Part shown: one piece after another, positions 6,567-10,628 of the stretch
How the letters are laid out: each line of letters begins with the position of its first letter
Numbering within the stretch: position 1 is the stretch's first letter
Translations under genes and position numbers: made by a program
IMG/VR virus record: IMGVR_UViG_3300029181_000143
Length of the DNA stretch: 20,408 bases
From: a virus
Lineage: Duplodnaviria; Heunggongvirae; Uroviricota; Caudoviricetes
Strand: one strand, 5' to 3'
The notes under the pieces: generated by a model
Databases searched by the model: none
Told to the model about the DNA's origin: nothing
Seen by the model: only the letters and a program-made list of their open reading frames with translations

Positions 6567-6897
6567 ACAGGCTCGTGAGGCTCTGGATGCCTGGATATGT
6601 CGACCAGGAATGACACAGGAGCAGGCGACGATATTAATCACTGAAGCATTCTGGGCTTTGAAAGAGCGCCCGAACATCGATGTTCAGCGTGTCACAGATG
6701 AAGGTGGCGCGGTTGATCAGCGAGCGCTTGGTGTTAATCGAGTGAAGATATTCGAACGCTGGAAGGCTATCGACACCAGGGATAAGCGTGAAAAGTTCAC
6801 GGCGCTAGTGCCTGCGATTATGGAGGCTAAACATAATCTGTCGCGAGTGCCGGAAGAGCGAAGTTATGCAGCGCATACTGGCTTTCTATCAGGGTAA
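6550..6897 (+). CDS. Hypothetical protein in the cII position (YdaT/YdfX-like), 115 aa
   Basis: ORF whose start overlaps the dicC stop by 17 nt. Function is inferred from position only. Confidence 0.55.
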   Translation: MKITPEQAREALDAWICRPGMTQEQATILITEAFWALKERPNIDVQRVTDEGGAVDQRALGVNRVKIFERWKAIDTRDKREKFTALVPAIMEAKHNLSRVPEERSYAAHTGFLSG

Positions 6898-6915
6898 TTT
6901 TCAGGACGTGGCGCA

Positions 6916-7405
6916 GTGAGTGCACCGGCAACCATTCTTGATATGTGCTGTGGCAGCCGCATGTTCTGGTTCGATAAGTCTGACGAACGGGCGATATTTA
7001 GCGATATCAGAAAAGAAGGATACACATTACGCAATGGGAGACGCTTGATTATCAGCCCTGACATTATCGCAGATTTTCGTGCATTATCATTTGCAGACGC
7101 ATCTTTTTCGATGGTTGTATTAGACCCTCCGCATCTTGAGCGTGTTGGTGATAACGCCTGGATGGGAAAGAAATATGGACGGCTGAATAAAGATGCCTGG
7201 CGTGATGATTTGCGACAGAGATTTAAAGAAGCTTTTCGGGTGTTGAGGCCGCACGGCGTTCTGATTTTTTAATGGAATGAAACGCAAATACCGGTAAGCC
7301 AGATTCTGGCACTGACAGATAGAAAGCCTGTTATCTGTCAACGAACAGGGAAAAAACGATAAAACCCACTGGATTATTTTTATGAAAGAGGCATCCAGTG
7401 AGTAG
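6916..7405 (+). pseudogene. Small SAM-dependent methyltransferase (phage Dam-like; motif I LDMCCGS, motif IV DPPH) disrupted by an in-frame TAA and a +1 frameshift
   Basis: The 118-aa ORF ends at TAA 7270..7272. Protein-like sequence continues in frame (WNETQIPVSQILALTDRKPVICQRTGKK) and then in the +1 frame after an A6 run at 7351..7356 (DKTHWIIFMKEASSE, stop 7403..7405). Confidence 0.55.
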
Positions 7406-7534
7406 ATTCGTAAGGTTACAGATACGTATATCTGAATAATTAAATTCAGTTCTGTAAATAAAACTTAATCCTTAACCGGATGGATTTCTGCACCCTCAGA
7501 ACATCAGGAGGCCGCCCGAAAGGGCGGTAGTGAA

Positions 7535-7645
7535 ATGCGAAAGTTCAAAATTATTATTGAAACGGGAATAGCTGGTGGAGATTTTGAGGATGTATTCGAA
7601 GTGGACGATGACGCAACACCTGATGAAATTCATGACGGAGCATAA
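7535..7645 (+). CDS. Small acidic ORF (36 aa, MRKFKIIIETGIAGGDFEDVFEVDDDATPDEIHDGA)
   Basis: AGGAG Shine-Dalgarno at 7506..7510 is separated from the ATG by a GAAA-loop hairpin (7512..7527). Protein-like sequence continues after the TAA to 7717. Confidence 0.3.
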   Translation: MRKFKIIIETGIAGGDFEDVFEVDDDATPDEIHDGA

Positions 7646-7694
7646 GAAATTTTCTTTAACTACTGCAATTACTCATACCACGAAATAAAAGACG

Positions 7695-7886
7695 ATGAGG
7701 AAGAACAAAGTGGCTGATTTTTGTTCAGCTAAATATAACATCAGTTTTGAAGAGCGGGATGAACTATTAATGGACTATGGTGAGTTACGCGGTGGAAGTG
7801 CTGCTGATGTCGAATCCTAGCGTGATGACTATGAAGCGGGAAAAACTCCGGTCGAAGCATATTGTGATGAGTGGGGCGATGAATGA
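7695..7886 (+). pseudogene. Small ORF with an in-frame amber codon at 7818..7820 (41 aa before the stop, 63 codons if read through)
   Basis: Hand translation MRKNKVADFCSAKYNISFEERDELLMDYGELRGGSAADVES*RDDYEAGKTPVEAYCDEWGDE. Its stop overlaps the next ATG in an ATGA arrangement. Confidence 0.3.
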
Positions 7887-8170
7887 GCGAGATTAATTAT
7901 CAGGAAGGGCATGAAACGGCGGGGCAAGCAAAACCAGTGACATGGCGATATCGCTACGTGAAAAAAGGCGTTACGGACTTTCAGGGGAAGTAGTGGTCTG
8001 GTGACTGGAAATATGTACCGAAAAAAGAGGATTGTAACGACAGGCCGAACTATCAAATTCAGGCCTTATTCACTGCCTCACCAGTCCCGGTTACATCAGA
8101 AGAATTGGTTAAAGCTGTGCACTTTTATGAACAACTAAAACGCGAAAATCCACCAACATCCGGCAACTAG
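7883..8170 (+). pseudogene. Small ORF with an in-frame amber codon at 7991..7993 (36 aa before the stop, 95 codons if read through)
   Basis: Hand translation MSEINYQEGHETAGQAKPVTWRYRYVKKGVTDFQGK*WSGDWKYVPKKEDCNDRPNYQIQALFTASPVPVTSEELVKAVHFYEQLKRENPPTSGN. It is ATGA-coupled to the upstream ORF. Confidence 0.35.
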
Positions 8171-8424
8171 ATTAATGGGTTAACTATGTCGGTTAAACGA
8201 CCAGCCAACTGAAAAAGCGGAAACCTGATTACAGGTTGCCAGATAAGGCAATGAGCTACCTGGCGCGGAACGGACTGATAAGTATGGGGAATGTTTTACG
8301 ATGAACCTTTAGACTAAAGAGTTTGTAACGCTATGTAAGTGATTTTTTCTGGTTTAGATATTTATATGTCCGGCCAAATTGAGGTGTGTTTAAATGTAAT
8401 TGCACATTGATTGTAGGAGGAATA

Positions 8425-8604
8425 ATGAAAAACGCATTGCAGTTTTTGTTTGTTGCGTTCTGGTTGTTCGCATCATGTATGCCCATCATCTTCACAGCAA
8501 GGTATATGGAAAAAGTTGATGTTTTGATATTAATATTTGGATATATAAATGCCCTTTTTTTAGGGGTGTTCATGGCGGTCATATGCATTGAATACTGGCG
8601 GTAA
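8425..8604 (+). CDS. Orphan small membrane protein (59 aa, two predicted transmembrane helices)
   Basis: Translation MKNALQFLFVAFWLFASCMPIIFTARYMEKVDVLILIFGYINALFLGVFMAVICIEYWR. AGGAGG Shine-Dalgarno 6 nt upstream of the ATG. The gene and its upstream region are markedly AT-rich compared with neighbours. Confidence 0.45.
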   Translation: MKNALQFLFVAFWLFASCMPIIFTARYMEKVDVLILIFGYINALFLGVFMAVICIEYWR

Positions 8605-8752
8605 ATACAGCGAACTCCATTGGTTTAGTTGGATATTTACTGTGCTGGACAAAAACGGTTTGCGGGGAAATCTTAGTTAAGTAGAATGACTGCGGGTGCT
8701 TGAGGCTATCTGCCTCGGGCACGAACACCAACGGCAGGTAGAGAAAAGCCCC

Positions 8753-10628
8753 AGTTAACATTACGCGTCCTGCAAGACGCTTAACATTAATCTGAGGCCG
8801 ATTTCATGCCAGACACATGTAGGTTAGCCTCTTACGTGCCGAAAGGCAAGGAGAAGCAGGCTATTGTTAACACCAAGCTGTAATGTCCCCTTTGAACCAT
8901 TCTAAAATGTCCCCAGACAATTCTCTGGGGGATTTTTCATGACCAAAGAAACTGTTACGATGAGTCATAAGGAACTCCACCGACTTCAGATTATTCAGGA
9001 GTCAATTAATCGACATATTACTCAGGAACAAGCTGCGGCACGCATTGGCATTTCTATTCGGCAGGTTAAACGTCTGGTGCAACGGTATAGAAATGAAGGG
9101 CCTTCTGGTCTGGTTTCCCACCGACGTGGAAAGCGTCCTAATAATTCCTTTTCTACTGAATTCAGAGCAACAGTAATTTCACTCCTCAAAGGCCGTTACG
9201 CTGATTTTGGACCTACGTTTGCGTGCGAAAAATTGCGCGAGATACACGGTTTATCTTTATCCGTTGAAACTCTCAGAAAGTGGATGATAGAAGAGGGGGG
9301 TATGGCGTGAACGCCGTCGTAAAATTGCCCGTATATATCAACGCCGCATGCGACGACCATCTTACGGTGAACTGATCCAGATTGATGGCTCACCTCATGA
9401 CTGGTTTGAAAATCGAGGCCCAGATGTACACTGATCGTTTTCATTGATGATGCCACCAGTGCGTTGATGGCGTTGCGTTTTGTGCCTGCTGAAACAACCC
9501 GGGCTTACATGGAAACCCTCCGGGGTTACCTTAATGATCATGGCGTACCGCTCGCTCTCTACTCTGATAGACACAGTATATTCAGGGTAAATAACCCAGA
9601 GCGGGAAGGTGAGCTGACCCAGTTCACTCGTGCGATAAAGACACTGGGCATCGAGCCAATCCATGCCAACAGCCCGCAGGCAAAAGGGCGGGTAGAGCGC
9701 GCCAATCAGACACTACAGGACAGGCTGGTCAAAGAAATGCGGCTTCAGAATATCAGTGATATTGAAACAGCAAATGCATGGTTGCCGACCTTTATTGAAG
9801 CCTATAACAACCGGTTCGCTACGTCGCCTCGTACTACTGATAATGCTCATCTTGATGTGCACCATTCTGAAGAGGAACTGGGTTATATCTTCAGCCTACA
9901 GGCGAAGCGCGTTCTGTCTAAAAATCTCACTTTCCAGTACAAAAGCAGTGCGTTTCAGGTACGCAGTGAGGGCCGGGGATATCGACTTAGGCATTCGGTT
10001 GTTACTGTATGCGAGAACTTTGACGGTGAAATTAACGTTCTGTATGACGGGAAAGCGCTGGGCTGGGAAAAGTATGTTGATGGCCCGGAGCCTATACCAC
10101 TGGATGATGAAAAGAGTGTCCATGAACGAGTGGATAATGCCCGTATTGATTTACGCTCAAAATACTATGTTAAACCTAAAGCTGACCATCCCTGGCTTAC
10201 GCGCCGAACGCAAAGTCATCAGCAAGTTAAGCCCCCGAAGTTACCTAAAAAGAAGCCTGATCCCGATAAAAAAGATTGAAACCAAGATCGATTCGGTTGA
10301 GTGCATATCCATTCATAGGGTAGATTCTTAAGTCGCGTTTCTGGTGTTCATTTTCGGGTGGTTTGTTACTTGTTTTACCGGGGATATGCCAGAAACGCGC
10401 TGAGTCAGTCTGGGCGGTGCGCGTAATGAGGCGTTATGGTAAATAGCCTATGCTAATGTCCGCTAAGAGCAAGAAGCGGAAGTTGGCAGTTTTGTGGACT
10501 GTCCCCACAAAAGTGACTACAGAAATAGTTGCAATTCATAATTGATCATGGGTTGTCAGTTAAACTCGTGGCGATTTAAATAGACTAATTGGGAGTGCGT
10601 CCATTACTTATATCTTGTAATGTTAACT
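8753..10628 (+). mobile_element. Insertion sequence carrying a DDE (rve-type) transposase; the ends are tentative
   Basis: The transposase gene occupies 8939..10279. The ends are placed at a 12-bp inverted match (agttaacattac at 8753..8764 and gtaatgttaact at 10617..10628). No target-site duplication was recognised. Confidence 0.45.
8939..10279 (+). pseudogene. IS transposase (N-terminal HTH plus DDE integrase core; ISNCY/IS481-like by eye) broken into three segments by two frameshifts
   Basis: N-terminal ORF 8939..9310 and C-terminal ORF 9464..10279 are in the same frame. The intervening 9300..9425 encodes conserved-looking sequence (SYGELIQIDGSPHDWFENRGP) in another frame. The shifts sit at a G6 run (9293..9300) and at GGCCCA (about 9417). 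DDE residues occur in QIDGS, FIDDATS and KGRVERAN. Confidence 0.7.

What the first reader, a model, noticed from the sequence alone, without database searches (positions are those of the whole stretch)
7535..8170. Three tandem small ORFs each interrupted by a single in-frame stop
ORF 7535..7645 ends in TAA but protein-like sequence runs on to 7717. ORF 7695..7886 has an amber at 7818. ORF 7883..8170 has an amber at 7991, followed by 58 stop-free codons. The last two are ATGA-coupled. None of the three stops is in a homopolymer, so sequencing error is unlikely. Three independent nonsense lesions with no frameshifts in adjacent genes could mean decay, genuinely short peptides, or suppression-dependent expression.
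Basis: seen in the sequence. Interest (0 to 1): 0.45.

Follow-up and report, generated by a model that had tools for sequence, protein, structure and literature searches.

The report
Decayed small genes in Qin prophage
The three interrupted small reading frames are ordinary dead genes (pseudogenes) of phage accessory proteins inside the well-known Qin cryptic prophage of E. coli, each knocked out by a point mutation that intact relatives lack.

Summary
The three in-frame stops are real: TAA 7643-7645, TAG 7818-7820 and TAG 7991-7993. The window is a Qin-type cryptic prophage of E. coli. Intact homologues in Rac/Qin-like prophages and phages encode full-length proteins of 60 aa (Pfam DUF7167), 58 aa and 119-171 aa. 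They carry AAA (Lys), TGG (Trp) and CAG (Gln) where the window has stops.

Among 5,426 complete E. coli genomes, the stop alleles occur in 483, 506 and 1,159 genomes. All copies are chromosomal; the first two alleles are always single-copy. The sense alleles of genes 1 and 2 occur in about 1,220-1,280 genomes.

RefSeq already marks genes 1 and 3 here as pseudogenes. Gene 2 has also lost its ATG (GTG at 7710). Gene 3 really extends to 8304 and carries further lesions:
- a 90-bp deletion
- a 4-bp frameshift

The neighbouring methyltransferase is frameshifted, an IS fragment lies downstream, and K-12 has deleted the whole segment.

There is no tRNA in the window. TAG replaces two different amino acids. 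Intact neighbouring genes end in TAA and TAG. Suppression or recoding is therefore not supported.

Verdict: routine prophage decay, low interest. One unexplained curiosity remains: all three stops fall at codon 37.

The parts
7535..7717 (+). Gene 1 pseudogene: a DUF7167-family small acidic phage protein, ancestrally 60 aa. Lys37 AAA->TAA at 7643-7645. The ancestral stop is TGA 7715-7717.
   Evidence: Translation. Pfam PF23768 E=1.9e-13 when the stop is read as Lys, and PHROG 1997. AAA in L002, L005, L006 and L007. PGAP marks it 'DUF7167 family protein, internal stop'. The TAA allele is in 483 genomes and the AAA alleles in 1,221 + 223 genomes.
7710..7886 (+). Gene 2 pseudogene: PHROG 519 small acidic protein, ancestrally 58 aa. 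The start is ATG->GTG at 7710. Trp37 TGG->TAG at 7818-7820. The ancestral stop is TGA 7884-7886.
   Evidence: ATG start in 164 of 164 surveyed homologues. The TAG allele is in 506 genomes and the TGG allele in 1,278 genomes.
7883..8304 (+). Gene 3 pseudogene: PHROG 660 protein, ancestrally 171 aa, with a 119-aa variant also known. Lesions: Gln37 CAG->TAG at 7991-7993; a 90-bp in-frame deletion at junction 8146/8147; a second CAG->TAG at 8168-8170; a 4-bp deletion at 8200/8201. The ancestral TGA 8302-8304 is now out of frame.
   Evidence: PGAP marks it 'frameshifted; internal stop' over the same span (L001 8484-8905 = window 7883-8304). The TAG37 allele is in 1,159 genomes.
7506..7534 (+). Translation-initiation region of gene 1. 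AGGAGG (7506-7511) is followed by a GC-rich GAAA-loop hairpin (7511-7528), then 6-7 nt to ATG 7535.
   Evidence: Sequence. RNA fold -16.9 kcal/mol, z = -3.0. Conserved in homologues. Its function is inferred, not tested.
6916..7405 (+). Upstream neighbour: a SAM-dependent methyltransferase pseudogene (frameshifted, internal stop). It lies just right of a ~1.56-kb deletion junction at 6827-6829.
   Evidence: PGAP annotation of the identical segment (L001 7562-8006 = window 6961-7405). ORF list. Window-versus-L001 alignment.
8939..10279 (+). Downstream neighbour: fragments of an IS1202-like ISEsa1 transposase (an HTH ORF and a transposase truncated at its C-terminus).

Best explanation
The region holds three adjacent, translationally coupled accessory genes of a lambdoid (Rac/Qin-type) phage early region. 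They have become pseudogenes in the Qin cryptic prophage of E. coli.

Each was inactivated by an ordinary point substitution:
- gene 1, AAA->TAA
- gene 2, TGG->TAG
- gene 3, CAG->TAG

The gene 3 amber is the most widespread, and probably the oldest. It is also found in Rac-like prophages whose genes 1 and 2 are intact. The gene 1 and gene 2 stops are confined to the Qin-like haplotype, where they appear fixed.

After inactivation the genes kept decaying. Gene 2 lost its ATG. Gene 3 acquired a 90-bp deletion, a second amber and a 4-bp frameshift.

No full-length products are made. At most, 36-residue N-terminal fragments could be translated, and there is no sign that these are selected.

Shown here: the lesions, their ancestral states and their population distribution. 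Inferred: the order of events and the lack of expression.
For: Identity of the element: the window is syntenic with Qin (integrase, xis, exonuclease, ydfD, dicB, ydfC/B/A, dicA-like, dicC-like ... ydfW, flxA, ydfV, relBE, hokD, rem, ydfU, ydfT).

Ancestral states:
- Intact orthologues of 60, 58 and 119/171 aa exist in phages and prophages.
- They have sense codons at all three stop positions.
- Family profiles span the stop positions.
- In 168 surveyed loci, gene 1 is intact in 161 and gene 2 in 159. Gene 3 was detected in 158 of them and is full-length in 69. Other lineages carry lesions at other places.

Population distribution:
- The stop alleles occur in 483, 506 and 1,159 of 5,426 genomes. 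All copies are chromosomal; the first two alleles are always single-copy and the third has a median of one copy per genome, at most two.
- No exact single-base revertant exists on the same haplotype.
- The sense alleles of genes 1 and 2 occur in 1,221 and 1,278 genomes.

Selection: pN/pS against an intact homologue is about 0.2 on both sides of the stops (0.20 upstream, 0.18 downstream). The full-length proteins were therefore the selected unit for most of the divergence, and the stops are late events.

Chance expectation: about 50 lineage-specific substitutions were counted, and 4.5-5.7% of random substitutions in these genes create stops. That gives 2-3 nonsense changes expected, so three is not an excess.

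Extra lesions and surroundings: for the genes themselves. The methyltransferase is frameshifted and an IS fragment lies next door. K-12 Qin lacks window 6830-10094 altogether. RefSeq PGAP calls genes 1 and 3 pseudogenes.
Against: Downstream of the stops, few missense changes have accumulated. Gene 2 has 0 missense and 2 synonymous lineage-specific changes downstream. Relaxed constraint after the stops therefore cannot be demonstrated; the numbers are too small either way.

All three stops lie at codon 37 of their genes. A simple mutational null gives this a probability of about 1e-4. This was noticed post hoc.

Expression was not measured.
Confidence: 0.93

Rival explanations
1. Genuinely short products. 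The 36-residue N-terminal peptides of the three genes are expressed and retained as functional micro-proteins, which would explain why each stop sits at codon 37.
For: All three truncated ORFs are exactly 36 codons from the homologous starts. The chance of identical codon index is about 6e-5 to 1.5e-4 under a simple null. The Shine-Dalgarno/hairpin initiation region of gene 1 is intact. The stop alleles persist in about 480-1,160 genomes.
Against: Gene 2's N-terminal part shows 9 missense against 4 synonymous lineage-specific changes, including Trp16Arg and His17Asp, and loss of its ATG.

The three stops arose at different depths and on different haplotypes, so they are not a coordinated event.

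K-12 and other strains have deleted the segment.

Other lineages inactivate the same genes at other positions: codons 2, 58 and 44, and indels.

Persistence in many genomes is expected from vertical inheritance of a chromosomal cryptic prophage.
Confidence: 0.04
2. Suppression- or readthrough-dependent expression. Full-length proteins are still made through a suppressor tRNA, programmed readthrough or a reassigned stop codon.
For: Open, protein-like frames continue after each stop. The downstream segments still look constrained in comparison with intact homologues. The gene 3 TAG replaces Gln, the amino acid inserted by supE-type suppressors and by TAG-recoded phages (known from the literature, not tested here).
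Against: The window has no tRNA gene.

Two different stop codons are involved (TAA and TAG). TAG replaces Trp in gene 2 and Gln in gene 3, so there is no coherent decoding rule.

Intact genes of the same prophage end in TAA (6 genes) and TAG (1 gene).

Most homologues have sense codons rather than conserved stops.

Gene 3 also has a frameshift, a deletion and a second amber that readthrough could not repair. Gene 2 has lost its ATG.

The low downstream pN/pS is equally expected if the stops are simply recent.
Confidence: 0.02
3. Sequencing or assembly artefact: the stops are errors in this one sequence.
For: None beyond the general possibility.
Against: The identical alleles are present in 483, 506 and 1,159 independent complete genomes and in a deposited phage record. 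The stops are not in homopolymers.
Confidence: 0.005

Closest known systems
Pseudogenes of cryptic (grounded) prophages of E. coli, specifically Qin (K-12 b1545-b1579 region)
   Same: The gene neighbourhood and names match (dicB, ydfD, dicA/dicC, ydfW, flxA, relBE, hokD, rem, ydfU, ydfT). The decay is of the same mixed kind: point nonsense mutations, frameshifts, deletions and IS insertion. This is as described in general for Qin and Rac (PMC6379469). RefSeq annotates two of the three as pseudogenes.
   Different: This Qin variant retains a segment (window 6830-10094) that K-12 Qin has lost. The three pseudogenes therefore have no K-12 gene names.
Intact orthologues in Rac/Qin-like temperate phages, e.g. 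Escherichia phage vB_EcoS-689R5 (ON470583.1) genes URC08891-URC08893, and RefSeq WP_001224662.1 (DUF7167) and WP_000753060.1
   Same: The order, overlaps (ATGGCTGA and ATGA coupling) and position between the replication genes and the hok/Q region are the same. DNA identity is 88-92%.
   Different: The orthologues are uninterrupted: Lys, Trp and Gln at codon 37. Gene 3 is 119 aa there, or 171 aa in L087 and L072.
Stop-codon-recoded phages (TAG->Gln, e.g. crAss-like and Lak phages) and programmed readthrough (e.g. the Q-beta A1 protein); recalled from the literature
   Same: Only the superficial picture is shared: in-frame TAG with open frame beyond, and TAG in the place of Gln in gene 3.
   Different: There is no suppressor tRNA. 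TAG also replaces Trp, and TAA replaces Lys. TAA and TAG serve as real terminators in the same element. The stops are not conserved among homologues.

Membership tests
Qin-type cryptic prophage of E. coli | Synteny with K-12 Qin marker genes (dicB-ydfD, dicA/dicC, ydfW, flxA, ydfV, relBE, hokD, rem, ydfU, ydfT/quuQ, cspB/F) | tested here: met
   Annotation of the 99.9%-identical region in NZ_CP027462.1. Comparison with the MG1655 feature 'cryptic prophage Qin'.
Qin-type cryptic prophage of E. coli | Defective state: lesions in several phage genes, IS insertions and deletions | tested here: met
   Methyltransferase, gene 1 and gene 3 are flagged as pseudogenes, with ISEsa1 fragments nearby. A 1.56-kb deletion relative to the best matches. 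Inability to form phage was not tested.
Nonsense-inactivated pseudogene | Full-length intact orthologues exist with a sense codon at the position of the stop | tested here: met
   AAA, TGG and CAG in L002, L005 and L007. 161 of 168 and 159 of 168 loci are intact for genes 1 and 2. Sense alleles occur in about 1,220-1,280 genomes.
Nonsense-inactivated pseudogene | Relaxed selection or further lesions after the stop | tested here: inconclusive
   Further lesions are clear for gene 3 (deletion, frameshift, second amber) and gene 2 (start-codon loss). For gene 1, and for the substitution pattern downstream of the stops, there are too few lineage-specific changes to test. pN/pS against intact homologues is about 0.2 on both sides.
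Pfam DUF7167 (PF23768), gene 1 | Score above the gathering threshold over the whole 60-position model | tested here: met
   50.7 bits against a cut-off of 24.4, model positions 1-60, with the stop read as Lys. The intact orthologue scores 55.1 bits.
Programmed stop-codon readthrough or suppression | The stop codon is conserved among homologues at that position | tested here: not met
   Homologues have sense codons. The stops are confined to one haplotype each, except gene 2 TAG, which is also seen on two rare haplotypes.
Programmed stop-codon readthrough or suppression | A cognate suppressor tRNA or readthrough signal is present | tested here: not met
   No tRNA in the 20.4-kb window. The rest of the host genome and any downstream RNA signals were not examined.
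Stop-codon reassignment (alternative genetic code phage) | The reassigned codon is not used as a terminator, and maps consistently to one amino acid | tested here: not met
   TAA ends 6 and TAG ends 1 of 13 intact ORFs checked. TAG aligns to Trp in gene 2 and to Gln in gene 3.

The most novel reading that the evidence does not exclude
The positions of the stops may not be random. All three lie exactly at codon 37 (+108 nt from each homologous start). The gene 2 Trp37 amber also occurs on three different sequence backgrounds (window type, L006, L045).

The most novel reading not excluded is that something favours truncation at this point. It could be selection for about 36-residue N-terminal peptides of these acidic phage proteins, for example as retained inhibitors or anti-defence fragments. 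It could instead be a position-specific mutational process.

The evidence does not exclude this, but it offers no mechanism either. The coincidence was noticed after the fact.
Probability: 0.03. Interest if true: 0.5.

Novelty: already known. Interest (0 to 1): 0.08.

Why it matters
It matters little beyond correct annotation. The region should be annotated as three pseudogenes: 7535-7717, 7710-7886 and 7883-8304. It should not be annotated as six short ORFs or as a recoding candidate.

The case is a clean illustration of stepwise decay of dispensable accessory genes in a vertically inherited cryptic prophage, with dated layers:
- the gene 3 amber, shared with Rac-like prophages
- the gene 1 and gene 2 stops, specific to the Qin haplotype
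- later indels
- complete deletion of the segment in K-12

The functions of the intact proteins (DUF7167, PHROG 519, PHROG 660) remain unknown. Those functions would be the only biologically interesting follow-up.

Tried and rejected
- tRNA or suppressor search in the window: none found.
- Promoter/terminator scan of 7250-8450: nothing above shuffle expectation.
- PDB sequence search with the intact proteins: only insignificant or spurious hits.
- NCBIfam: no family.
- Pfam for genes 2 and 3: no family.
- Literature: no paper mentions DUF7167, and nothing was found on PhiR42_1. Only general accounts of Qin decay exist.
- Single-base 'revertant' alleles on the window haplotype: none exact, so the immediate ancestors of the stop alleles are not among the 5,426 genomes.
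- The L006-type gene 2 amber allele in complete E. coli genomes: no match.
- dN/dS upstream versus downstream of the stops: no difference (0.20 vs 0.18). This cannot by itself separate recent decay from readthrough, and lineage-specific counts are too small.
- A Dcm (CCWGG) deamination hotspot was considered for the gene 2 amber. The window reads TCC-TAG, which would derive from CCTGG. The TCC-TGG ancestor was not found, and the other two amber haplotypes read GCA-TAG, which is not a Dcm site. This is left as a possibility for this haplotype only.
- Sequencing error: rejected.

Full report
**Observation**

- The frame from ATG 7535 meets TAA at 7643-7645 and stays open to TGA 7715-7717.
- The frame through 7695-7886 has TAG at 7818-7820.
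- The frame from ATG 7883, which overlaps TGA 7884-7886, has TAG at 7991-7993. It is then open for 58 codons to TAG 8168-8170.

None of the stops is in a homopolymer.

**Context**

The window is a Qin-type cryptic prophage of E. coli. An 851-bp query around the finding matches 2,564 of 5,426 complete E. coli genomes. The whole window matches several chromosomes at 99.9%, apart from one 1.56-kb deletion in the window.

In the RefSeq annotation of the identical segment (NZ_CP027462.1) the neighbours are, in order:
- integrase, excisionase, exonuclease, ydfD, dicB, ydfC/B/A
- a DicA-like repressor, a Cro/DicC-like protein, ydaT-family, O-like and DUF977 genes
- a frameshifted SAM-methyltransferase
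- the three genes of the finding
- ISEsa1 transposase fragments
- ydfW, flxA, ydfV, relBE, hokD, rem, ydfU, ydfT

These are the marker genes of K-12 Qin. PGAP already marks gene 1 as 'DUF7167 family protein, internal stop'. It marks gene 3 as 'hypothetical protein, frameshifted; internal stop', spanning window 7883-8304. K-12 Qin lacks window 6830-10094 entirely.

**What the genes are**

Related Rac/Qin-like prophages and phages, at 88-92% DNA identity, carry uninterrupted versions.
- Gene 1 is a 60-aa DUF7167 protein.
- Gene 2 is a 58-aa protein whose ATG overlaps the end of gene 1 (ATGGCTGA).
- Gene 3 is ATGA-coupled to gene 2 and encodes 119 aa, or 171 aa in a longer form (L072 and L087).

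Profile matches cover the whole lengths, across the stop positions: Pfam PF23768 and PHROG 1997 for gene 1, PHROG 519 for gene 2, and PHROG 660 for gene 3. All are of unknown function. PDB and NCBIfam searches add nothing.

**The lesions**

In the DNA alignment the window's stops correspond to sense codons in the intact genes.
- TAA corresponds to AAA (Lys37 of gene 1).
- The first TAG corresponds to TGG (Trp37 of gene 2, counted from the homologous start at 7710).
- The second TAG corresponds to CAG (Gln37 of gene 3).

Further damage is present.
- The start of gene 2 is GTG in the window but ATG in all 164 homologues surveyed.
- Against the 171-aa form, gene 3 has a 90-bp in-frame deletion between two (E/D)NPP-coding repeats (junction 8146/8147).
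- Gene 3 has a 4-bp deletion at 8200/8201. The ancestral TGA at 8302-8304 is therefore out of frame: 516 - 90 - 4 = 422 nt, which equals 7883-8304.

The statement that there are no frameshifts thus holds only within 7535-8170.

**Population view**

I used 55-mers centred on the mutated base, so that every 28-base megablast seed must contain it.

| Allele | Complete genomes (of 5,426) |
|---|---|
| Gene 1 TAA | 483 |
| Gene 2 TAG | 506 |
| Gene 3 TAG (codon 37) | 1,159 |
| Gene 1 AAA, commonest intact haplotype | 1,221 |
| Gene 1 AAA, second haplotype | 223 |
| Gene 2 TGG, commonest intact haplotype | 1,278 |

All stop-allele copies are chromosomal. The gene 1 and gene 2 stop alleles are always single-copy. 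The gene 3 allele has a median of one copy per genome and at most two.

Single-base revertants on the window's own haplotype were not found as exact matches. These counts are lower bounds, because flanking variation removes seeds.

In 168 loci (the window, annotated records and IMG/VR contigs), gene 1 is intact in 161 and gene 2 in 159. Gene 3 was detected in 158 of them. It is full-length in 69 and otherwise a patchwork of variants. The codon-37 TAG is present in 39 loci. It is usually combined with +1 or +2 slippage in the A6 run at 7961-7966, and it often lies in prophages whose genes 1 and 2 are intact.

Other lineages are hit elsewhere:
- gene 1: codon 2 TGA and codon 58 TAA
- gene 2: codon 44 TGA and a 1-bp deletion

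The picture is repeated, independent loss of dispensable accessory genes. The gene 3 amber is the most widespread, and probably the oldest, of the window's three. The gene 1 and gene 2 stops are specific to the Qin-like haplotype.

**Selection and chance**

Nei-Gojobori counts against an intact homologue give pooled pN/pS of 0.20 upstream and 0.18 downstream of the stops. For most of the divergence the whole proteins were under purifying selection, so the stops are late events. This does not itself exclude readthrough.

Polarised, lineage-specific changes number about 50: 23 synonymous, 25 missense and the nonsense changes. Of random substitutions in these genes, 4.5-5.7% would create stops. 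Two to three nonsense changes are therefore about what neutral change would give. Gene 2's first 36 codons carry 9 missense against 4 synonymous lineage-specific changes, which argues against a conserved short peptide.

**Rival readings**

Suppression or recoding is not supported.
- ARAGORN finds no tRNA in the window.
- Both TAA and TAG are involved, and TAG stands for Trp in one gene and Gln in another.
- Intact ORFs of the same element end in TAA (6), TGA (6) and TAG (1).
- Gene 3 has lesions that readthrough cannot repair.

Sequencing error is excluded.

**An unexplained detail**

Counted from the homologous starts, each stop is at codon 37 (+108 nt). Under a simple mutational null, the chance that three independent nonsense hits share a codon index is about 6e-5 to 1.5e-4.

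The gene 2 Trp37 amber also occurs on two other haplotypes: L006, and L045, which differs from intact L007 at only 3 of 177 bases. The L006-type allele was not found in the complete E. coli genomes.

I found no sequence similarity around the three stops and no mechanism. The three events sit at different depths of the population, and other lineages carry lesions elsewhere. I therefore treat this as a post-hoc coincidence, and record it as such.

**Comparison and verdict**

This is the ordinary decay of a grounded prophage, as described in general terms for Qin and Rac (PMC6379469). It is already flagged in RefSeq.

It is not a member of any recoding or readthrough class. The defining features tested all fail: a conserved stop, a suppressor tRNA, a consistent codon meaning, and avoidance of the codon as a terminator.

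Novelty: already known. Interest: low (0.08).

Noticed in passing
window 7643, 7818, 7991 (relative to starts 7535, 7710, 7883): All three premature stops are at codon 37 of their genes, each +108 nt from the homologous start. A simple mutational null gives about 6e-5 to 1.5e-4 for a shared codon index. No mechanism was found. It is probably a post-hoc coincidence.
   Followed up: partly
window 7818-7820; L006 (ON470580.1) and L045 (IMGVR_UViG_2703718816_000016): The same Trp37 TGG->TAG change in gene 2 occurs on three different flanking haplotypes. L045 differs from intact L007 at only 3 of 177 bases. This is either recurrent mutation or spread by recombination. In the window the codon context TCC-TAG would derive from a Dcm site (CCTGG). 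The other two contexts (GCA-TAG) would not.
   Followed up: partly
window 7506-7537: The strong Shine-Dalgarno sequence AGGAGG lies 23 nt before the ATG of gene 1, but a GC-rich GAAA-loop hairpin sits between them (-16.9 kcal/mol, z = -3.0). If folded, it would bring the Shine-Dalgarno sequence to about 7 nt from the start. This resembles the arrangement reported for T4 gene 38 (recalled from memory). It is conserved in homologues.
   Followed up: partly
window 7961-7966 (A6 run in gene 3); L002, L005, L090, L144: Among alleles carrying the gene 3 amber, the A run is A6, A7 or A8. With A8 the alternative frame is open for 85 codons, and it is annotated as a protein in phage records (URC10046.1). 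That is probably an annotation artefact of a pseudogene.
   Followed up: partly
window 6827-6829: The window lacks about 1.56 kb present in all best-matching genomes: the 3' part of the ydaT-family gene, the O-like gene, the DUF977 gene and the 5' part of the methyltransferase region. The left edge of this deletion coincides with the left edge of the larger K-12 Qin deletion, which removes window 6830-10094. This suggests a recombination-prone junction.
   Followed up: partly
window 8939-10279: Fragments of an IS1202-like ISEsa1 element (an HTH ORF of 123 aa and a transposase truncated at its C-terminus) lie directly downstream of the pseudogene cluster.
   Followed up: no
PP818812.1 (hit H34): A record named 'Actinobacillus phage vB_Apl-pPE4' carries this E. 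coli Rac/Qin-like segment at 89.9% identity over 85% of the query. That is an unexpected host label for a typical E. coli lambdoid region.
   Followed up: no
PV340562.1 (L004): The record 'Escherichia phage PhiR42_1, complete genome' (host ECOR13) is 99.1% identical here. It contains the same three stops, the IS fragments, and relBE and hokD, so it looks like a Qin-type prophage region deposited as a phage. Its annotation calls the truncated 36-aa ORF of gene 1 and an out-of-frame ORF as hypothetical proteins.
   Followed up: no
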